Positions 3,198 through 61,543 of a DNA stretch of 64,000 nucleotides are shown here, one piece after another. Positions within the stretch are counted from its first letter, which is position 1, and each line of letters begins with the position of its first letter. Location: positions 307,520,001 through 307,584,000 of the forward strand of contig OZ024740.1 of the NCBI GenBank assembly GCA_964016885.1. The letters run 5' to 3'. The position numbers and the translations under genes are program-made. Below the pieces are notes generated by a model. It searched no databases and was not told where the DNA came from. It was given only the letters and a program-made list of their open reading frames with translations. This stretch comes from Eledone cirrhosa. Lineage: Eukaryota.

Positions 3198-3393
3198 AAC
3201 GAAGGAAGTGTGGTAAAGAACCAGATGGGCCATAACGCACCAGAGTACCCAATACTTAGGGTAGTAGAGTAGGTAATATGAAAATGTTTAACCCCGACGG
3301 CAGAGCTCAAGCCGTTTCGACGGCTATTTCTCAACTAAATTAGAATTTTTAACGAAACGGCTTGAGCTCTGCCGTCGAGGTTAAACATTTTCA

Positions 3394-3397
<4 letters not shown>
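3198..3397 (-). mobile_element. Asymmetric fold-back element (PLE pLTR-like 3' end with HHR 3' half)
   Basis: Arms ATATGAAAATGTTTAACCCCGACGGCAGAGCTCAAGCCGTTTCG / CGAAACGGCTTGAGCTCTGCCGTCGAGGTTAAACATTTTCATAT, about 80-bp tail on the left, (TA)n both sides; relatives at 4319-4400, 20710-20850, 44876-45090, 46795-46960. Confidence 0.75.
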
Positions 3398-3860: not shown

Positions 3861-4100
3861 ACTTCTGCCTTGTCGATGGGACAGTTAGGAAGTGTGCACA
3901 TATTGTTGTATGCAGGTCATTCTCTCTAGAATAGTCTCTTCAATTAAGGTTCCGGATGGCTTGTCGGAAGGCAGTGGTGGGGTGGTCTTCTCATTGAAAT
4001 GCAACAGCTTTAGGTAGCATATGCTAACTCTAGGGGTGCGTGTCTTCCTTGTTCATTTAAGTGTTGCTGCCTTGGCATTTCTGCATATATATATATATTA

Positions 4101-4302
4101 GAAGCACTCAACAGTTAGGTTTTCTGGAGCTATTAATATTACTTCAAAATATTAATAAATATAGACATTCATGTGATCAAATATATTTTATTATATATAT
4201 TTCAGAGGTACTGAGCTGTTTCATCAGTACCTCTGAAATATATATAATAAAATATATTTGATCACATGAATGTCTACATTTATTAATATTTTGAAGTAAT
4301 AT
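4101..4302 (-). mobile_element. Fold-back element centred on HHR stem II
   Basis: Near-perfect palindrome 4136-4302 with centre GAGGTACTGAGCTGTTTCATCAGTACCTC; homologous to HHR-bearing copy at 37890-38002; tail 4101-4135; TA flanks. Confidence 0.8.
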
Positions 4303-4398
4303 ATATATATATATATATCGACGGCTATTTCTGAGTCCAGAAATAGCCCTCGAAACGGCTTGAGCTCTGCCGTCGGATTCATACTTTTTCCTATTTTT

Positions 4399-4452
<54 letters not shown>

Positions 4453-4656
4453 TATGAACACGTACATACATATATGTATACAGACGTACAGTAGTATGTA
4501 TATATATATACATACATGCACACATATATATATATGTACGTATGGATTCACCGAACATTTATTATAATGCTCGGTGTGTTTGTAAACAAACATCCCGTAT
4601 TAAGCCGTAGTGTCCAGCAACCATCGTTGCTCGTTTGTTCAACACTGACAAAGGAA

Positions 4657-4697
4657 CGCTGTACTAGTTTCAAGCTTATTAGCTATCGTCAGCAACG
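4657..4697 (-). ncRNA. Type I hammerhead ribozyme (mirror copy)
   Basis: Reverse complement of 4882-4922. Confidence 0.75.
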
Positions 4698-4881
4698 TAT
4701 ACCATCCTGCCAGATTGTTGAACGTATATACTTACCTTATGCATATTAACGGCTGAGTAGCCCAATTTGCATATCGAGTGGGTTAATCGGCCGGGTGCAC
4801 CGAAAATTGCAAATTGGGCTACTCAGCCGTTAATATGCATAAGGTAAGTATATACGTTCAACAATCTGGCAGGAAGGTATA

Positions 4882-4922
4882 CGTTGCTGACGATAGCTAA
4901 TAAGCTTGAAACTAGTACAGCG
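4882..4922 (+). ncRNA. Minimal type I hammerhead ribozyme
   Basis: CGTTG-CTGACGA-TAGCTAATAAGCTT-GAAA-CTAG-TA-CAGCG: stem I CGTTG/CAGCG, core, stem II AGCT/AGCT, palindromic stem III ACTAGT. Confidence 0.75.
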
Positions 4923-5205
4923 TTCCTTTGTCAGTGTTGAACAAACGAGCAACGATGGTTGCTGGACACTACGGCTTAATACGGGATGTTTGTTTACAAA
5001 CACACCGAGCATTATAATAAATGTTCGGTGAATCCATACGTACATATATATATATATGTGTGCATGTATGTATATATATATACATACTACTGTACGTCGG
5101 TATACATATATGTATGTACGTGTACATACTTATATTTAAGTAACAGCCGTACTAAGAGTGGGAAATGAAATTTTGTTTCATTTTTTTCCATTTATATATA
5201 TATAC

Positions 5206-11280: not shown

Positions 11281-12596
11281 TGGACGGAGGGACCGGTGAA
11301 GCTGCTCGGGGTCTGGTTCGGACCGGACCTCCAGGTGGAGAAAAACTGGGACGAGGTAACGGGCAAGGTGTTTGCACTCGCTCAGAAGTGGGCCGAGTGC
11401 AAACTATCCCTGAAAGGTCGAGCGGAGGTGGCGAACGCTTATATAGCGTCCGTCATCTACTACCGCTTGACCGTCGTGCCTTGCCCAGAGAAAACACTCG
11501 CCAAAATGGAGCACGCACTCTTCCGATTTCTTTGGAACAAGCGGGCTCCTTTGGTGAGAAGATCCATCTGCTGCCAACACCCTTCGAACGGAGGGCTGGG
11601 GCTGCCGTGGCTGACGATGCGTAGACACGCATTAAGGCTACGGCACCTCCAGGTATTCCTCACCGGTCAGCCGGTGTGGGCCCTGTTTGTGAGGCGAGCC
11701 TTTCCGAGACTCGTCTCACTCACCGAGCTGCAATCCTGGGTCAAGCAAAGACCGAGAAAAGTGGGCGACTGGCACATTCAATGTGCCCAGGCGCTCACGG
11801 CCCTCTGGCAAGCGGATCCGGTTATCAGTGGAGACTCAACCTCAACATTCTATAGAGGGTTGGTGCGCAGTAAGTGCGACGACGCTCTCGGAGAGGCTCT
11901 GGGCATGGAGGAAGACGAGCTGGCCAGTCTGTTCGGTAGGACGTTTGGCCCGGGACCGATGGATAACTTCCAAAAGTCCCTGGCTTGGCAATGTTACCGA
12001 GGAGCTTTACCCGTTCGGGACAAGCTCTACAGACACGGGCGCCCGGGTAGGGACCCCTCGAAGAAGATCTGTCCAAGATGCGTGCGTGACGAGGAAACCG
12101 TCGCACACGCATTCGTACACTGCCCGGGCGTTGCTGACCTGTGGAGCTATGTAGAACGACTACTGTCGCGGGTGGGACCAATCCGGTTGACCACCGAGAA
12201 CATTGTCACGATCAAACCGTCTCCTCGTTTCAAAAACGAAGGAGAGGCGGTTTTCGTCTGTGTGATAGCCATGGCGAAAGAAGTTGTATGGTGGACAAGG
12301 TTAAAAGGGCTGAGGTCAGACACCTTTCTCTCCGGCCAACAACTGGTCTTTTTTTTCAAGTACCACTTTAGAAGAAGGATCAGAATGGAGAGAGAGGTGC
12401 TCTACCCCAGCAAGTTTTATGAAAGATGGGTGAAAGTAGCAAGAATGGCCCGAGTGAATGGGCCTTCTCTCTATATCAGCCTGTAGGTGAGAGAGGAGAA
12501 GATTGAGAAGAGGAAGGAAGCACCCGCTCTTTGTGCTCCTGAAGAGGAGGGTTGCACATTTTTTCGGGGGTGTGTGCGACCCATGTCAACGCCCCT

Positions 12597-14420: not shown

Positions 14421-15825
14421 TGTTTCTTTTATTTGCCACTAGGGCATCAAAAGTGGGACAAGTACAAAGGGGGGAGTTTACACAAAAAGGCGTCCTCAAT
14501 AAGGAGGAGGCAATAACAAAATATAAAAATAAAATAAGATATAACAAAAAATAAAATTTATAACAAAATCCTCAATAGAGAGGAGGCGCCTTGGGGGGTC
14601 GCACACACCCCCGAAAAAAGTGTGCAACCCTTCTCCTCAGGAGCACAGAGAAGGGGTGCTCCCTTGGTCTTTCATCTTCCTCACCTATAGTCTGATGTAG
14701 AGTGAAGGCCCATTCACACGGGCCATTCTCGCCACTTTCACCCATCTTTCATAGAAACGGCTGGGGTGCAGCACCTCTCTCTCCATCCTGATCCTTCTTC
14801 CGAAATGATATCGGAAGAAACGGACCAGTTGTTGGCCAGAGAGAAAGGTGCCTGACCTCAGTCCTTTCAGACGCGTCCACCATACAACCTCTTTCGCCAT
14901 GGCTATTACGCACAGAAACACCGCCTCTGCTTCATCTTTGAAGGGGGGAGGCGGCTTGATCATTACAATAAACTCGGTGGTCAACCGGATCGGTCCCGCC
15001 CTTGACAGCAGTTGTTCGACATAGCCCCACAGATCGGCTACGCCCGAGCAGTGTACCAATGCGTGTGCAACGGTTTCCTCGTCGCACACGCATCTGGGAC
15101 AGATCTTTTTGGCGGGGTCCCTACCCGGGCGCCCGTGTCTGTAGAGCCTTTCTCGAACGGGTAGAGCCCCTCGGTAGCACTGCCAGGCCAGGGACTTCTG
15201 GAAGTTGTCCATAGGTCCTGGGCTGAATGTCCTACCGAACAGGCTGGCCAGTTCGTCCTCCTCCATGTCTAGGGCTTCTCCGAGGACGTCGTCGCACCTG
15301 CTACGTACCAGCCCTCTATAGAATGTTGCGGTGGAGTCTCCACTGATAACCGGATCCGCCTGCCAGAGGGCGGTGAGCGCCTGGGCACACTCAGTGTGCC
15401 AGGCGCCCAGTTTTCTCGGTCTTTGCTTGACCCGGGATTGCAGCTCGGTGAGTGAGACGAGTCTGGGAAAGGTTCGTCTCACAAACGTGGCCCACACCGG
15501 TTGTCCGGTGAGGAATACGTAGAGGTGCCGTAGCCTTAATGCGTGTTTACGCATCATTAGCCACGGCATCCCCAGCCCTCCTTTCGAAGGGTGTTGACAG
15601 CAGATGGATCTCCTCACCATAGGAGCCCGCCTCTCCCAAAGGAATTGGAAGAGCGCGCGCTCCATCTTGGTGAGGGTTTCCCTTGGGCAGGGCACTACGG
15701 TCAGGCGGTAGTAGATGACGGACGCTATGTAGGTGTTCGCCACCTCCGCCCGACCTTTCAGGGATAGTTTGCAACTGGCCCACTTCTGGGTCAGTGCAAA
15801 CACCCTGTTCGTAACCTCCACCCAG
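14421..15825 (-). mobile_element. Second 5'-truncated Tx1/L1-like LINE copy, inserted in (TATC)n
   Basis: Paralogue of 11281-12600; (GATA)n at 15826-15868 and GATAGATA at about 14413. Confidence 0.85.
14685..15824 (-). CDS. Tx1/L1-like ORF2 C-terminal part
   Basis: Same motifs as 11296-12486, no internal stops; the N-terminal YLSI repeats of the listed ORF are microsatellite. Confidence 0.85.
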   Translation of the reverse strand, partial: WVEVTNRVFALTQKWASCKLSLKGRAEVANTYIASVIYYRLTVVPCPRETLTKMERALFQFLWERRAPMVRRSICCQHPSKGGLGMPWLMMRKHALRLRHLYVFLTGQPVWATFVRRTFPRLVSLTELQSRVKQRPRKLGAWHTECAQALTALWQADPVISGDSTATFYRGLVRSRCDDVLGEALDMEEDELASLFGRTFSPGPMDNFQKSLAWQCYRGALPVRERLYRHGRPGRDPAKKICPRCVCDEETVAHALVHCSGVADLWGYVEQLLSRAGPIRLTTEFIVMIKPPPPFKDEAEAVFLCVIAMAKEVVWWTRLKGLRSGTFLSGQQLVRFFRYHFGRRIRMEREVLHPSRFYERWVKVARMARVNGPSLYIRL

Positions 15826-34010: not shown

Positions 34011-34261
34011 AATATTGGTTGCCAGGAGATGAAGGGGACCCACCTACATATAGAATGCTATCATTTAATTTTTATAATGAATAAATAACATTTTCAAAAA
34101 ATAATGAAGTGGAAACAAAACAGTGCAATCAAACTTTTGCGGAAAAATATCTTACCTTCTCCAATAAAAAATATAATGTTTTTTGAAAGAGACTTTCAAT
34201 AATGATCATTGGTCTTTCACACTCACGCAATATACATCTATTTATATATATATATATATTT

Positions 34262-37200
34262 ATATAGACATAGAATATTCGAAAATATTCTGTATGTTTA
34301 TAATAAACATTTTGAAGACCTAATCGCTATAGAATAGAATACGTCACGTATTACAATTAGATTCTCGATAAAAGCAAGGGAAGTAAGTCTACGCGTTTCA
34401 TTCTTGTTAGAATTCATCAGGACTACATATCCAGTGCTTTTATCGAGAATGACACAGCTAGAGACTTATAGAATACTTAGCTGTGTACAGGAACTGGTTT
34501 GAAAGAGCGGTTGCCGGTCCGGCAGAAATTAGAAATTGGAATAAATGCTCTGAAATAGCGATATATATGTGAATATAGACATAGAATATTCGAAAATATT
34601 CTGTATGTTTATAATAAACATTTTGAAGACCTAATCGCTATAGAATAGAATACGTCACGTATTACAATTAGATTCTCGATAAAAGCAAGGGAAGTAAGTC
34701 TACGCGTTTCATTCTTGTTAGAATTCATCAGGACTACATATCCAGTGCTTTTATCGAGAATGACACAGCTAGAGACTTATAGAATACTTAGCTGTGTACA
34801 GGAACTGGTTTGAAAGAGCGGTTGCCGGTCCGGCAGAAATTAGAAATTGGAATAAATGCTCTGAAATAGCGATATATATGTGAATATAGACATAGAATAT
34901 TCGAAAATATTCTGTATGTTTATAATAAACATTTTGAAGACCTAATCGCTATAGAATAGAATACGTCACGTATTACAATTAGATTCTCGATAAAAGCAAG
35001 GGAAGTAAGTCTACGCGTTTCATTCTTGTTAGAATTCATCAGGACTACATATCCAGTGCTTTTATCGAGAATGACACAGCTAGAGACTTATAGAATACTT
35101 AGCTGTGTACAGGAACTGGTTTGAAAGAGCGGTTGCCGGTCCGGCAGAAATTAGAAATTGGAATAAATGCTCTGAAATAGCGATATATATGTGAATATAG
35201 ACATAGAATATTCGAAAATATTCTGTATGTTTATAATAAACATTTTGAAGACCTAATCGCTATAGAATAGAATACGTCACGTATTACAATTAGATTCTCG
35301 ATAAAAGCAAGGGAAGTAAGTCTACGCGTTTCATTCTTGTTAGAATTCATCAGGACTACATATCCAGTGCTTTTATCGAGAATGACACAGCTAGAGACTT
35401 ATAGAATACTTAGCTGTGTACAGGAACTGGTTTGAAAGAGCGGTTGCCGGTCCGGCAGAAATTAGAAATTGGAATAAATGCTCTGAAATAGCGATATATA
35501 TGTGAATATAGACATAGAATATTCGAAAATATTCTGTATGTTTATAATAAACATTTTGAAGACCTAATCGCTATAGAATAGAATACGTCACGTATTACAA
35601 TTAGATTCTCGATAAAAGCAAGGGAAGTAAGTCTACGCGTTTCATTCTTGTTAGAATTCATCAGGACTACATATCCAGTGCTTTTATCGAGAATGACACA
35701 GCTAGAGACTTATAGAATACTTAGCTGTGTACAGGAACTGGTTTGAAAGAGCGGTTGCCGGTCCGGCAGAAATTAGAAATTGGAATAAATGCTCTGAAAT
35801 AGCGATATATATGTGAATATAGACATAGAATATTCGAAAATATTCTGTATGTTTATAATAAACATTTTGAAGACCTAATCGCTATAGAATAGAATACGTC
35901 ACGTATTACAATTAGATTCTCGATAAAAGCAAGGGAAGTAAGTCTACGCGTTTCATTCTTGTTAGAATTCATCAGGACTACATATCCAGTGCTTTTATCG
36001 AGAATGACACAGCTAGAGACTTATAGAATACTTAGCTGTGTACAGGAACTGGTTTGAAAGAGCGGTTGCCGGTCCGGCAGAAATTAGAAATTGGAATAAA
36101 TGCTCTGAAATAGCGATATATATGTGAATATAGACATAGAATATTCGAAAATATTCTGTATGTTTATAATAAACATTTTGAAGACCTAATCGCTATAGAA
36201 TAGAATACGTCACGTATTACAATTAGATTCTCGATAAAAGCAAGGGAAGTAAGTCTACGCGTTTCATTCTTGTTAGAATTCATCAGGACTACATATCCAG
36301 TGCTTTTATCGAGAATGACACAGCTAGAGACTTATAGAATACTTAGCTGTGTACAGGAACTGGTTTGAAAGAGCGGTTGCCGGTCCGGCAGAAATTAGAA
36401 ATTGGAATAAATGCTCTGAAATAGCGATATATATGTGAATATAGACATAGAATATTCGAAAATATTCTGTATGTTTATAATAAACATTTTGAAGACCTAA
36501 TCGCTATAGAATAGAATACGTCACGTATTACAATTAGATTCTCGATAAAAGCAAGGGAAGTAAGTCTACGCGTTTCATTCTTGTTAGAATTCATCAGGAC
36601 TACATATCCAGTGCTTTTATCGAGAATGACACAGCTAGAGACTTATAGAATACTTAGCTGTGTACAGGAACTGGTTTGAAAGAGCGGTTGCCGGTCCGGC
36701 AGAAATTAGAAATTGGAATAAATGCTCTGAAATAGCGATATATATGTGAATATAGACATAGAATATTCGAAAATATTCTGTATGTTTATAATAAACATTT
36801 TGAAGACCTAATCGCTATAGAATAGAATACGTCACGTATTACAATTAGATTCTCGATAAAAGCAAGGGAAGTAAGTCTACGCGTTTCATTCTTGTTAGAA
36901 TTCATCAGGACTACATATCCAGTGCTTTTATCGAGAATGACACAGCTAGAGACTTATAGAATACTTAGCTGTGTACAGGAACTGGTTTGAAAGAGCGGTT
37001 GCCGGTCCGGCAGAAATTAGAAATTGGAATAAATGCTCTGAAATAGCGATATATATGTGAATATAGACATAGAATATTCGAAAATATTCTGTATGTTTAT
37101 AATAAACATTTTGAAGACCTAATCGCTATAGAATAGAATACGTCACGTATTACAATTAGATTCTCGATAAAAGCAAGGGAAGTAAGTCTACGCGTTTCAT

Positions 37201-37876
37201 TCTTGTTAGAATTCATCAGGACTACATATCCAGTGCTTTTATCGAGAATGACACAGCTAGAGACTTATAGAATACTTAGCTGTGTACAGGAACTGGTTTG
37301 AAAGAGCGGTTGCCGGTCCGGCAGAAATTAGAAATTGGAATAAATGCTCTGAAATAGCGATATATATGTGAATATAGACATAGAATATTCGAAAATATTC
37401 TGTATGTTTATAATAAACATTTTGAAGACCTAATCGCTATAGAATAGAATACGTCACGTATTACAATTAGATTCTCGATAAAAGCAAGGGAAGTAAGTCT
37501 ACGCGTTTCATTCTTGTTAGAATTCATCAGGACTACATATCCAGTGCTTTTATCGAGAATGACACAGCTAGAGACTTATAGAATACTTAGCTGTGTACAG
37601 GAACTGGTTTGAAAGAGCGGTTGCCGGTCCGGCAGAAATTAGAAATTGGAATAAATGCTCTGAAATAGCGATATATATGTGAATATAGACATAGAATATT
37701 CGAAAATATTCTGTATGTTTATAATAAACATTTTGAAGACCTAATCGCTATAGAATAGAATACGTCACGTATTACAATTAGATTCTCGATAAAAGCAAGG
37801 GAAGTAAGTCTACGCGTTTCATTCTTGTTAGAATTCATCAGGACTACATATCCAGTGCTTTTATCGAGAATGACAC
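34262..37876 (-). repeat. Tandem array of about 11.6 x 311-bp units, one hammerhead ribozyme per unit (retrozyme-like)
   Basis: GACATAGAATATTCG recurs at 34267, 34578, 34889 ... 37688 (period 311); units look identical; TA-rich flanks. Confidence 0.95.
34386..34424 (-). ncRNA. Canonical minimal type I hammerhead ribozyme (repeats every 311 bp, last at 37807-37845; 12 copies)
   Basis: Minus: AGTC-CTGATGA-ATTCT AACA AGAAT-GAAA-CGCG-TA-GACT; stem I extended by perfect 16-bp ATTCTCGATAAAAGCA/TGCTTTTATCGAGAAT. Confidence 0.9.
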
Positions 37877-37940
37877 ATATATTTATATATATTATTCAGA
37901 ATATTAATAAATGAAGACATTCACATAATCAAAATATATG

Positions 37941-38002
37941 TTTTATTATATATATTTCGAAGGTACTGTGCGGTTTTTTCAGTACGTCCTCGTCAGATAG
38001 AA
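37941..38002 (-). ncRNA. Type I hammerhead ribozyme
   Basis: Minus: TTCTAT-CTGACGA-GGACGTACTG..CAGTACCTTC-GAAA-TATATA-TA-ATAAAA. Confidence 0.65.
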
Positions 38003-38130
38003 TACATGAATTGATGTATGACATGCCTCAACGGTCTTGATGGTTCAATTCCAGTATTGGCATATATATATATATATATATATATATGCCAATATATATA
38101 TATATGCCAATATATATATATATATGCATA

Positions 38131-41040: not shown

Positions 41041-41083
41041 GTCAAAGTTCTTTCGTCACACATTCTGTGACCTCTTCAGTGAC
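41041..41083 (-). ncRNA. Variant hammerhead in PLE pLTR (mutated twin at 42854-42896 +)
   Basis: Minus: GTCA-CTGAAGA-G-GTCAC AGAATGT GTGAC-GAAA-GAAC-TT-TGAC. Confidence 0.65.
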
Positions 41084-41117
41084 TGGGGATTCTTTTCTTT
41101 GTTTTTGTGTCTCTCCT

Positions 41118-42652
41118 ACTTAAACTTAGCTATAGTAATAATTACCTAGACACATATGACCTTAGCAACCTGTGCCCTACAAGACCAGCAAGAGGCAGAC
41201 CACCTACCATTACCTCAATGGCCAAGAAAACCCACACAGATAGATGGAACGGGTGGACCAGAGCCATACGGACACCCGAAAACCACGATGAACTGAAGAA
41301 AATGATTGCACATGCGGTAGGGGCCAGCATAAAACTAACCCTTAAGGAACATATGTTCAAATTTAATGGAAAAACATATGCCCAAGAGCAAGGAGCAGCC
41401 ATTGGTGTTAGCATTGCAGGCGACATAGCTAACTTATTCATGGTATGGTGGGACAGTAGACTTAAACTTAAACTTAAAGAACAATTAGAAGACCCCTTAA
41501 CCCTGATAATGGACTCCCGCTACGTTGACGATATAAACATCGTAGTTAAGACACCCCCACTAGAGAACAGTCAGGAACTAGAGAAAAACACAATAGAAAG
41601 CATCCAGCAAACAGCTAACTCCATCCACCAGAGTATTAGAGTTACTATAGACTACCCAAGTAAACACCCCAACCATCGATTACCTGTACTAGACACAGAG
41701 CTCTGGTTAGATACCGTTAATAACAAAAAACAAATCCTCCATTCCCATTATGCCAAACCCATCACTTCCAAACATCTGATCCACCGAAACTCGGCTGTTT
41801 CGGACCATACCAAAATCAACATACTGATTGCGGATTTGGTACGGGTGATGAGAAACGTGTCCCGCATGTGCAACCCCGAAGAACTAGAGAGACACATACA
41901 ACACTTCATCCACCGTATGCAGTTCTCTGGTTACAATCAGAGAGATAGAATCAGAGTGTATAGAGGAGCCAGAACCAAATGGGAAAAAATGGTAAATAAT
42001 GACACAAATGGGACTTGCCCCTTGTATGGGAGCAAATTTTGGAATAGAATAGAAAGAACTAGGAATAAGGCTAATAGAATAAACTCATGGTATGATAGCA
42101 ATAAATACCAGAGTGCAATGTTCATCGATACAACCCCTAGAGGTGAATTAGCTTACAAATTTAGAAGGGCCCTAGATAAACATAAACTCAATATTAAGAT
42201 AGTAGAAAGACCAGGTACCTCCGTAAAAACACTTATTTGCAAGACATACCCTTTTCAAAGACCCCCCCTGTATAGATAAGAAATGTATAACCTGTAAAAT
42301 AAGCCCCCATATTAACTGTAAAACTAGAAATGTAGTGTATAGCATAAGATGTACTGAAGGACAATGTAGAGACAAAAATATAGTGTACATAGGTGAGACA
42401 GCTCGTAGTGTAGGGGAACGGATAAATGAACACTGGCGAGACCTTCAAGATAGTAAAGAATCATCTGTACTCTACCAACATGCTAAAATAGAACATAAGG
42501 GTAAATTAGAGAACATAGAAATAAAAATAGAATCTACACACAGAAAAGACGCAATGTTTAGACAAATCACAGAGGCAATAAACATAAAAGTATTACAACC
42601 AAAATTAAATAGAAAATATGAGTGGAACAGCAACATCACAACTTACAATTAA
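41118..42652 (+). CDS. PLE reverse transcriptase + Zn-linker + GIY-YIG endonuclease (N-truncated, +1 frameshift in C7 run at about 42262-42268)
   Basis: QEQGAAIG..GDIANLFM, RYVDDI, LPVLD; removing one C gives PCIDKKCITC..NCKTRNVVYSIRC..YIGETARSVGERINEH..RQITEAINI..PKLNRKYEW. Confidence 0.88.
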
Positions 42653-46794: not shown

Positions 46795-46959
46795 TATAGG
46801 AAAAAGTATGACCCCGATGGCAGAGCTCAAGTCGTTTCGACGGCTCTCTGCCGTCGGGGTTATACTTTTTACTTTTTCCTATTACCCATTCTACTGCCCT
46901 AAGTATTGAGTACTCTGGTGCGTTATGGTCCATCTGGTTCCTTACCACAATTCCTTCGT

Positions 46960-47569: not shown

Positions 47570-49410
47570 GTAGTGGCAGTGTGTGTTGTGGTGGTGTAGT
47601 CGGTTATGGGGGTGGTTCTGGTGATGGTGGTGGTGGTGGTGGTGGTGGTGGTGGTGGTGGTGGTGGTGGTGGTAGTGGCAGTGTGTGTTGTGGTGGTGTG
47701 GTCGGTAATGGGGGTGGTTCTGGTTCTGGTGATGGTGGTGGTGGTGGTGGTGGTGGTAGTGGCAGTGTGTGTTGTGGTGGTGTGGTCGGTAATGGGGGTG
47801 GTTCTGGTGATGGTGGTGGTGGTGGTGGTGGTGGTAGTGGCAGTGTTTGTTGTGGTGGTGTGGTCGGTAATGGGGGTGGTTCTGGTTCTGGTGATGGTGG
47901 TGGTGGTGGTGGTGGACGTGGTGGTGGTGGTAGTGGCAGTGTTTGTTGTGGTGGTGTGGTTGGTAATGGGGGTGGTTCTGGTTCTGGTGATGGTGGTGGT
48001 GGTGGTGGTGGTGGTGGTGGTGGTAGTGGCAGTGTTTGTTGTGGTGGTGTGGTTGGTAATGGGGGTGGTTCTGGTTCTGGTGATGGTCATGGTGGTGGTG
48101 GTGGTGGAGGTGGTGGTGGTGGTGGTGGTGGTAGTGGTAGTGTGTGTTGTGGTGGTGTGGTCGGTAATGGGGGTGGTTCTGGTGATGGTGGTGGTGGTGG
48201 TGGTGGTGGTAGTGGCAGTGTTTGTTGTGGTGGTGTGGTCGGTAATGGGGGTGGTTCTGGTTCTGGTGATGGTGGTGGTGGTGGTGGTGGACGTGGTGGT
48301 GGTGGTAGTGGCAGTGTTTGTTGTGGTGGTGTGGTTGGTAATGGGGGTGGTTCTGGTTCTGGTGATGGTGGTGGTGGTGGTGGTGGTGGTGGTGGTGGTG
48401 GTGGTAGTGGCAGTGTTTGTTGTGGTGGTGTGGTTGGTAATGGGGGTGGTTCTGGTTCTGGTGATGGTGGTGGTGGTGATGGTGGTGGTGGACGTGGTGG
48501 TGGTGGTAGTGGCAGTGTTTGTTGTGGTGGTGTGGTTGGTAATGGGGGTGGTTCTGGTTCTGGTGATGGTGGTGGTGGAAGTGGCAGTGTTTGTTGTGGT
48601 GGTGTGGTCGGTAATGGGGGTGGTTCTGGTTCTGGTGATGGTGGTGGTGGTGGTGGCAGTGTGTGTTGTGGTGGTGTGGTCGGTAATGGCGGTGGTTCTG
48701 GTTCTGGTGATGGTGGTGGTGGTGGTGGCAGTGTGTGTTGTGGTGGTGTGGTCGGTAATGGCGGTGGTTCTGGTTCTGGTGATGGTGGTGGTGGTGGTGG
48801 CAGTGTGTGTTGTGGTGGTGTGGTCGGTAATGGGGGTGGTTCTGGTGATGGTCATGGTGGTGGTGGTGGTGGAAGTGGTGGTGGTGGTGGTGGTGGTGGA
48901 CGTGGTGGTGGTGGTAGTGGCAGTGTGTGTTGTGGTGGTGTGGTCGGTAATGGGGGTGGTTCTGGTGATGGTGGTGGTGGTGGTGGTGGTGGTAGTGGCA
49001 GTGTTTGTTGTGGTGGTGTGGTCGGTAATGGGGGTGGTTCTGGTTCTGGTGATGGTGGTGGTGGTGGTGGAAGTGGTGGTGGTGGTGGTGGTGGTGGACG
49101 TGGTGGTGGTGGTAGTGGCAGTGTGTGTTGTGGTGGTGTGGTCGGTAATGGCGGTGGTTCTGGTTCTGGTGATGGTGGTGGTGGTGATGGAAGTGGTGGT
49201 GGTGGTAGTGGCAGTGTTTGTTGCGGTGGTGTGGTCGGTAATGGGGGTGGTTCTGGTTCTGGCGATGGTGGTGGTGGTGGTGGTGGACGTGGTGGTGGTG
49301 GTAGTGGCATTGTTTGTTGGGGTGGTGTGGTCGGTAATGGCGGTGGGTCTGGTGATGGTAGTGGTGGCAGTGGTGGTAGTGGCAGTGTTTGTTGTTGTGG
49401 TGGTTGGTGA
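47570..49410. repeat. (GGT)n-based minisatellite, units of about 65-90 bp
   Basis: AGTGGCAGTGT(G/T)TGTTGTGGTGGTGTGGT(C/T)GGTAATGG(G/C)GGTGGTTCT..GGTGAT plus variable GGT runs. Confidence 0.95.
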
Positions 49411-60985: not shown

Positions 60986-61507
60986 CGTTTCTGAATTTGT
61001 TTAGCAAGATTCTTTATCTGAAAACGTGTGTTGAAACCGATATTGTTATACTTTGGGAGGGTCATGTTGCCAATAAGAAACACACGCACCAGTTGCTTTC
61101 ACTTCAATTTATTATAATAAATTTATAAATTTAGGAATTTATAAATTTCCGGTTGGTTGGTTCCACAACCAGATGGTTGTTTATATATTGTCAAAGTTCT
61201 TTCGTCACACATTCTGTGACCTCTTCAGTGACTGGGGATTCTTTTCTTTGTTTTTTGTGCATCTCCTTTGTTCTGTCCTACGAACAAAGGAGAGGCACAA
61301 AAAACAAAGAAAAGAATCCCCAGTCACTGAAGAGGTCACAGAATGTGTGACGAAAGAACTTTGACAATATATAAACAACCATCTGGTTGTGGAACCAACC
61401 AACCGGAAATTTATAAATTCCTAAATTTATAAATTTATTATAATAAATTGAAGTGAAAGCAACTGGTGCGTGTGTTTCTTATTGGCAACATGACCCTCCC
61501 AAAGTAT

Positions 61508-61543
<36 letters not shown>

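What the first reader, a model, noticed from the sequence alone, without database searches (positions are those of the whole stretch)
4101..4302. Fold-back element that turns around exactly at hammerhead stem II, with its intact parent family in the same window
Seen: the palindrome arms match the sequence 3' of the HHR at 37941-38002 (CAGTACC..GAAATATATATAATAAAA..GTGAATGTC..ATTTATTAATATT). Its centre read on the minus strand (GTACTGATGAAACAGCTCAGTAC) is homologous to that HHR's stem II and loop (GTACTGAAAAAACCGCACAGTAC). Stem I 5' and the CUGANGA core are replaced by an antisense copy of the 3' half. Inference: reverse transcription stalled in the ribozyme, the cDNA snapped back on stem II and self-primed second-strand synthesis, giving a MITE look-alike of retro origin.
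Basis: partly seen in the sequence, partly recalled or inferred. Interest (0 to 1): 0.8.

Follow-up and report, generated by a model that had tools for sequence, protein, structure and literature searches.

The report
Head-to-head Penelope retrotransposon ends, stem-joined
This 200-base palindrome is two short copies of one end of a Penelope-like retrotransposon fused head to head at a ribozyme stem, likely made by two reverse transcriptions primed from opposite sides of the target and joined by a 7-base overlap rather than by one copy folding back on itself.

Summary
The palindrome is real (79-bp arms, 1 mismatch, 9-nt spacer) and turns inside hammerhead stem II. It is a solo head-to-head pLTR pair of a Hydra-clade Penelope-like element. 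The window's ribozyme at 37996 is a sister subfamily (86%); the true parent lies elsewhere in the genome. Such pairs are common (1,007 with exact anchors), but only 7 turn exactly at stem II. That is enriched among short junctions (7 of 24 against 3% expected), yet a non-ribozyme 6-nt inverted repeat gives 6 joins, and arm ends pile up at the likely RNA start, not at stem II (35 against 0 of 119). Nearly every pair has one arm ending at the proximal and one at the distal 3' end ('tail'): 24 of 26 and 45 of 48. In 5 of the 7 stem II turns the loop-less arm carries a tail that the loop-bearing arm lacks, which snap-back self-priming cannot copy. Best reading: twin target-primed cDNAs joined by microhomology. 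This locus alone fits either model. Inverted pLTRs with one-sided tails are known; the population test favouring twin priming was not found in print.

The parts
4097..4230 (-). Loop-bearing pLTR arm: from the stem II 5' strand (+11 from the ribozyme core) through loop, GAAA and the proximal 3' end into the tail (to about +148)
   Evidence: matches intact parent copies L045, L051, L053, L055
4224..4302 (+). Loop-less pLTR arm: from the stem II 3' strand (+27) to the proximal 3' end (+105), ending in (TA)n
4224..4230 (.). 7-nt overlap shared by both arms, equal to the seven upper pairs of hammerhead stem II; the junction lies within it
   Evidence: overlap 7; hairpin of these bases -4.6 kcal/mol as DNA
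4215..4223 (-). Loop II of the parent hammerhead, the unpaired spacer of the palindrome
4097..4135 (-). Partial 3' tail, the sequence between the two family 3' ends; present on this arm only; stops at about +148 instead of +195-200, at TAAT shared with the (TA)n flank
4085..4096 (.). Left part of the (TA)n target; no target-site duplication can be resolved
4303..4318 (.). Right part of the (TA)n target, followed by an unrelated repeat (family C)
37885..38060 (-). Sister-subfamily solo pLTR with an intact minimal hammerhead (core starts at 37996); homologous, not the direct parent

Best explanation
The element is two 5'-truncated copies of the terminal repeat (pLTR) of a Hydra-clade Penelope-like retrotransposon set head to head in a (TA)n tract, likely made by two target-primed reverse transcriptions, one from each cut target strand, that were likely joined through the 7 bases of hammerhead stem II. 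Shown: the family has two 3' end sites (+105 and +195-200), both lying upstream of the ORF in full-length copies. Nearly every head-to-head pair has one arm of each kind, and the tail falls on the 5'-longer or 5'-shorter arm about equally. The two arms of a pair share private variants. Inferred: the enzyme (perhaps a dimer) cuts both strands and starts one cDNA at each site on the same RNA or on RNAs of one source copy. Both cDNAs run toward the RNA 5' end, usually off it at -64, and their 3' ends anneal and fill in. Stem II is simply one of the longest inverted complementarities available, so a cDNA that has copied its 5' strand can pair with the partner cDNA there. The product has lost the catalytic core and shows no sign of spreading as a unit.
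For: One tail and one short arm: 24 of 26 pairs in a sample chosen on a 3' motif (p 5e-6); 43 of 48 by script, 45 of 48 by eye, in a second, partly overlapping sample. Tail on the 5'-shorter arm 16, longer 12, tied or unmixed 20; by eye in the first sample 9, 11 and 4. Exact stem II turns with tail on the loop-less arm: L152, L155, L166, L171, L043, against L153 (this locus) and L033; L034 is a sixth, outside the 24. Shared rare alleles: 7 of 21 doubletons lie in the two arms of one pair, against 0.8% expected. Control 6-nt inverted repeat outside the ribozyme: 6 joins genome-wide. Full-length layout, pLTR then tail then ORF: L248, L250, L251, L260-L262, L268, L271. The same rule holds for a 5.5-kb pair, L243, and for unrelated family C, 14 of 17 by script. 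In vitro, a Poseidon PLE cuts and extends both strands, starts RT at two internal sites that bound the tail, and is predicted to be a dimer (PMC11167929).
Against: At this locus the tail is on the loop-bearing arm and the hairpin is foldable, so snap-back is not excluded here. 2 of 26 and 3 of 48 pairs are short/short or tail/tail. This tail ends at a non-standard site. In PMC11167929 the start site did not differ between strands, so nothing there forces one start of each kind. The RNA start at -64 rests on motifs and end pile-up only. The enrichment null (uniform blunt joins) is simple, and the control pattern lies near the RNA start, where ends are denser. Shared variants could also come from later gene conversion between arms.
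Confidence: 0.7

Rival explanations
1. Snap-back self-priming: one cDNA, primed in the tail, copied both strands of stem II, folded back on them and copied itself as far as the proximal end, where it rejoined the (TA)n target.
For: The geometry of this locus fits: the loop-bearing arm is the 3'-longer one, the DNA hairpin is -4.6 kcal/mol, the arms differ at 1 of 79, and stem II joins are enriched. Self-priming was proposed for PLE junction palindromes in PMC3846280.
Against: It cannot make 5 of 7 exact stem II turns, nor 16 of 28 scored long-spacer pairs, in which the shorter arm has extra tail. No end pile-up at stem II. It would need a second mechanism for the same architecture.
Confidence: 0.15
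2. Later collapse: a longer head-to-head pair inserted first, and its centre was later deleted between the two 7-nt direct repeats that stem II creates in such a palindrome.
For: It would give the same sequence and either tail side. Long perfect palindromes are deletion-prone (established knowledge, recalled).
Against: Arm-to-arm divergence does not rise as the spacer shortens: 0.036, 0.024 and 0.035 substitutions per site for spacers <=30, 31-150 and >150; Spearman -0.005, p 0.97, 68 pairs. Copies without an inverted arm also show internal 5' ends.
Confidence: 0.12
3. A MITE mobilised by a DNA transposase, or an assembly fold-back artefact.
For: Palindromic, short, about 600 exact copies of a 43-nt arm motif.
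Against: Ends are asymmetric and junctions differ copy by copy; this spacer occurs once among the 24; long copies lead into an RT/GIY-YIG ORF; no fixed TSD. An artefact would not add a one-sided tail or an arm mismatch.
Confidence: 0.03

Closest known systems
Hydra-clade Penelope-like elements (PMC8557442)
   Same: C-terminal GIY-YIG, RW(R) motif, CxCX5C linker, no CCHH, CxxC near the EN end, hammerhead in the pLTR, (TA)n targets, inverted 5'-truncated copy, tail at one end only.
   Different: The tail is about 90-95 nt rather than 30-40. This copy is pLTR-only, with no ORF, and has lost the ribozyme core. Clade assigned by motifs, not by a tree.
Penelope inverted pLTRs with junction palindromes in Adineta vaga (PMC3846280)
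   Same: Head-to-head arrangement, palindrome at the junction, optional tail, TATA plus TCACT-like start motif in the pLTR.
   Different: That paper reads them as self-priming, probably on an antisense template; the tail-side counts here argue against any single-template fold-back for about half of the pairs.
Anolis Poseidon PAc in vitro (PMC11167929)
   Same: Two internal RT start sites bounding the tail, AT-rich target, both strands extended, ribozyme cleavage not needed.
   Different: Different clade. Inverted products are not treated in the parts read. There the start site was not homologous to the target; here both sites end in ATAT-like letters that match (TA)n.
LINE-1 twin priming (passages in PMC11702581; original model recalled)
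   Same: A second RT primed from the other target end gives a 5' inversion resolved by end joining or microhomology.
   Different: L1 copies adjacent, nearly non-overlapping parts of one RNA, which gives an inversion; here both cDNAs copy the same region from two fixed starts, which gives a palindrome.
MITEs
   Same: Short, non-coding, palindromic, many similar copies.
   Different: Asymmetric ends, variable centres, retro parent, no sign of spreading as a unit.

Membership tests
EN+ Penelope-like element (pLTR derivative) | Parent with RT and C-terminal GIY-YIG endonuclease in one ORF | tested here: met
   RT motifs (YRDD/YKDD) and a VY..YIG region in L218 and L240-L246, contiguous with the same 3' repeat. 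Read by motif; Pfam gave no significant hit for the L218 and L223 pieces. All ORFs seen are broken or truncated.
EN+ Penelope-like element (pLTR derivative) | pLTR repeated at both ends, with tail preceding the ORF | tested here: met
   pLTR, tail, then ORF start in L248, L250, L251, L260-L262, L268, L271; 3' pLTR after the ORF in L240, L241, L243, L244, L246
EN+ Penelope-like element (pLTR derivative) | Minimal hammerhead in the pLTR | tested here: met
   CUGANGA, stem II, GAAA and a palindromic AU stem III in parent copies; no Rfam hammerhead hit; cleavage not tested
Hydra clade | CxCX5C linker | tested here: met
   CNCKKKSEC in L218; CNCRNRSNC in L240, L242, L246
Hydra clade | No CCHH motif; RWK-type motif; DKG changed to DKT | tested here: met
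   One cysteine between the VY and YIG motifs; RRLRWR and NKT in one copy, L218; definitions from PMC8557442 section 11
Hydra clade | Placement in the RT phylogeny | not tested
   No reference PLE proteins were at hand
Hydra clade | (TA)n insertion | tested here: met
   Ends abut (TA)n at this locus and in most sampled copies
MITE / DNA transposon | Symmetric terminal inverted repeats and a fixed internal structure across copies | tested here: not met
   One-sided tail and variable junctions
MITE / DNA transposon | Fixed target-site duplication | tested here: inconclusive
   (TA)n on both sides hides any duplication
Self-primed (snap-back) product | Copied arm never extends 3' beyond its template arm | tested here: not met
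   Broken in 5 of 7 stem II turns and 16 of 28 scored long-spacer pairs; met at this one locus
Non-LTR retrozyme | Tandem head-to-tail monomers with an intact ribozyme | tested here: not met
   Single head-to-head pair lacking the core

The most novel reading that the evidence does not exclude
Penelope-like elements integrate by obligate two-sided priming: a dimeric RT/endonuclease starts one cDNA at each of two fixed RNA sites, one per target strand, and the cDNAs are joined head to head. That one step would explain the inverted pLTR, the one-sided tail and thousands of MITE-like palindromes, with ribozyme stem II acting only as an annealing patch.
Probability: 0.45. Interest if true: 0.75.

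Novelty: new member of a known kind. Interest (0 to 1): 0.5.

Why it matters
How Penelope-like elements make inverted repeats and one-sided tails is named as an open question in PMC8557442. This genome gives more than 1,400 anchored head-to-head pairs whose ends can be counted. The counts favour twin priming over self-priming and give a sharp in vitro prediction. In practice these palindromes would be mis-filed as MITEs, and if transcribed they would form near-perfect double-stranded RNA. The stem II turn itself is a minor by-product, under 1% of pairs.

Tried and rejected
Rfam scan: only low-complexity microRNA look-alikes, no hammerhead. Pfam on ORF pieces: nothing significant for L218 or L223. 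RNA runs: no RNA holder listed, so the RNA start is untested. Contigs of three runs of one sample laid on the locus: none spans it; one contig shows a strand switch at 4183/4230, too weak to use. Nearest-neighbour test of arm identity over 60 nt was uninformative: own arm strictly closest in 9 of 68, tied in 18; the doubleton test replaced it. Automatic microhomology lengths were noisy where arms have indels, so no genome-wide microhomology spectrum is claimed. The search for short second-arm stubs on non-inverted copies was confounded by (TA)n; stubs were seen by eye in a few copies (L078, L090, L093, L123, L126) and not counted. The CUGAUGA read on the minus strand at 4227 is stem II and loop of the parent, not a catalytic core. 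Earlier findings of the scan: none. PMC522041 is not held. Rows left out: L068 and L071 (second hits of one pair) from the first sample; L115 (duplicate) and the window locus from the end histogram; L208 (duplicate) and the (TA)n-interrupted pair L096 from the 48; eight rearranged or duplicate pairs from the doubleton test; five from the age test.

Full report
OBSERVATION. The window holds a palindrome with arms 4136-4214 and 4224-4302: 79 bp, one mismatch, 9-nt spacer. The left arm continues unpaired to about 4097. Both arms match the region 3' of the hammerhead motif at 37996 (minus strand) at 86% over 93 nt. The palindrome sits in (TA)n, so no target duplication can be read. Rfam finds no hammerhead in the window; a motif scan finds the 37996 ribozyme and several others.

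THE FAMILY. The genome is about 3.0 Gb. The 37996 copy belongs to a subfamily with many 97-98% copies. The palindrome's nearest relatives form another subfamily, about 82% alike to the first. Its intact hammerhead carries exactly the stem II and loop found at the palindrome's centre (L045, L051, L053, L055). So the parent is not in the window; a sister is. [quoted passage not shown] The RWR, NKT and CxCX5C motifs, the lack of CCHH and the (TA)n targets match the Hydra clade as defined in PMC8557442 (section 11 and passages read). This is a motif assignment, not a tree. Full-length starts read pLTR, ribozyme, proximal end site (+105 from the ribozyme core), tail, distal end site (+195-200), then the ORF (at least 8 of 25 loci). 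Both end sites therefore lie inside the 5' leader, as do the two internal RT starts shown in vitro for a lizard Poseidon element (PMC11167929; parts 1-3 of 4 read, supplements searched for three terms without hits).

WHERE ARMS END. A 43-nt motif 3' of the ribozyme has 583 exact matches. The first 100, in genome order, gave 88 loci including this one. By eye, 35 of 88 have an adjacent inverted arm. Of 119 arm 5' ends (window locus and one duplicate left out), 35 fall at -66..-55, none at +11..+18 and 5 at +19..+37. The cluster sits at the A of a TCACTG motif about 25 nt after a TATA-like box, a layout noted for rotifer pLTRs (PMC3846280, passages). I infer an RNA start; no RNA run was available. 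There is no stall peak at stem II.

IS STEM II SPECIAL? With exact 12-nt anchors on both arms, 24 pairs have spacers up to 30 nt and 983 have 31-215 nt. Seven of the 24 restore the natural stem II and loop (L152, L153 = this locus, L155, L166, L171, L033, L043); two more turn on an inner helix. Uniform blunt joins would give at most 3.1%: p 6e-6, or 4e-5 for 6 of 22 without this locus and one duplicate. The seven carry six different loop sequences, so they arose separately rather than by spreading. With sister-type anchors, 1 of 464 pairs turns there. A 6-nt inverted repeat outside the ribozyme gives 6 joins with one 24-nt pattern (a rough control, since it lies near the RNA start). Stem II is thus a real but minor hot spot, as expected of microhomology.

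SNAP-BACK OR TWO cDNAs? Snap-back makes the loop-less arm a copy of the loop-bearing one, so it can never hold extra 3' sequence. In 5 of the 7 exact turns the loop-less arm has the full tail and the loop-bearing arm stops at +105; L034 is a sixth case; this locus and L033 go the other way. Among long-spacer pairs the tail is on the shorter arm in 16, on the longer in 12, with 20 tied or unmixed (p 0.57 against 50:50). Pairs almost always have one end of each kind: 24 of 26 and 45 of 48 by eye, 43 by script; the two samples share five loci. Exceptions are L091, L108, L181, L184 and L196. The arms of a pair share rare alleles: 7 of 21 doubletons against 0.8% expected. They therefore come from one RNA or one source copy, or were homogenised later. 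A 5.5-kb pair follows the same rule (L243), as does unrelated family C (14 of 17 by script, 16 by eye). Later deletion between the 7-nt direct repeats would give the same sequence, but short-spacer pairs are no older than long ones.

MECHANISM. Shown: two end sites, one per arm; tail side independent of arm length; a 7-nt overlap equal to stem II at this locus. Inferred: both target strands prime, one at each site, and the cDNA 3' ends anneal and fill in. PMC11167929 shows both strands cut and extended and predicts a dimer, but found no strand bias in start site, so the 'one of each' rule is unexplained there. For this single locus snap-back stays possible (hairpin -4.6 kcal/mol). Its tail ends at +148 at a TAAT shared with the target, which I cannot assign to a minor start or to a deletion.

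WHAT IS KNOWN. An inverted 5'-truncated copy and a tail at one end only are standard for PLEs, and their origin is called undefined (PMC8557442, passages). Junction palindromes were read as self-priming (PMC3846280). Opposite-strand hammerhead pairs 100-700 bp apart were noted in Schistosoma (PMC4209133, part 1 of 4). Twin priming with end-joining or microhomology resolution is described for L1 (PMC11702581, passages; original paper recalled, not read). Searches for Penelope with twin priming, head-to-head/MITE, self-priming or microhomology found no paper applying a tail-side test or reporting stem II joins. Subscription papers, including PMC522041 (not held) and older Penelope reviews, could not be seen. 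bioRxiv 10.64898/2026.07.22.740005 (abstract, outline and a passage search) links tandem retrozymes to pLTRs, and the passage search found no treatment of inverted pairs; its supplements are closed.

VERDICT. A new member of a known kind. The stem II turn is real but incidental; the more useful result is the genome-wide evidence for two-sided priming.

Noticed in passing
window 3276-3396, 4318-4400, 46801-46870; L007, L098, L274-L293: Family C, a young repeat (99% alike) that also forms head-to-head pairs with one short and one tailed arm. Its junctions cluster at an Inr-like TTAGT motif after a TATA-like box. This lies inside the long loop II of a hammerhead-like arrangement whose core reads CUGAGAAG in 24 of 25 copies. 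If the promoter is inside the loop, the ribozyme would be whole only in read-through RNA. The minimum-energy fold did not give the hammerhead, and no ORF was found within 1.5 kb.
   Followed up: partly
window 34250-37877: Tandem array of 11.7 units of 311 bp, 99% alike, each with a minimal hammerhead motif on the minus strand; retrozyme-like, and abuts the 3' end of the sister copy at 37885.
   Followed up: no
window 61040-61515 and 4499-5080: Two more long palindromes (arms 234 and 273 bp). The first has a hammerhead motif in each arm and turns about 50 nt upstream of the core, not at stem II.
   Followed up: partly
window 41083-42279: 398-aa frame with a weak RT match (RVT_1, E 0.011), just after a hammerhead motif at 41079 on the minus strand; likely another Penelope-like family.
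   Followed up: no
window 11346-12500 and 14671-15825: Inverted 1,155-bp pair, 86% alike, encoding the C-terminal zf-RVT part of a LINE.
   Followed up: no
window 40668 (+) and 60071 (-): Further minimal hammerheads with long stem II and AT-rich 3' flanks of the same build; the 60071 one is a distant relative of the studied family.
   Followed up: no
L006 (upstream flank) and L152: A subfamily whose stem II is reduced to four pairs with a 4-nt loop also gives exact stem II turns.
   Followed up: partly
L240-L246, L218: The parent ORFs have asparagine-rich stretches between RT and endonuclease, recalling the N-rich inserts of rotifer Penelope elements in PMC3846280.
   Followed up: no
window 47588-49409: 1.8-kb GTG-rich tandem array with open frames in several phases; probably a simple repeat.
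   Followed up: no
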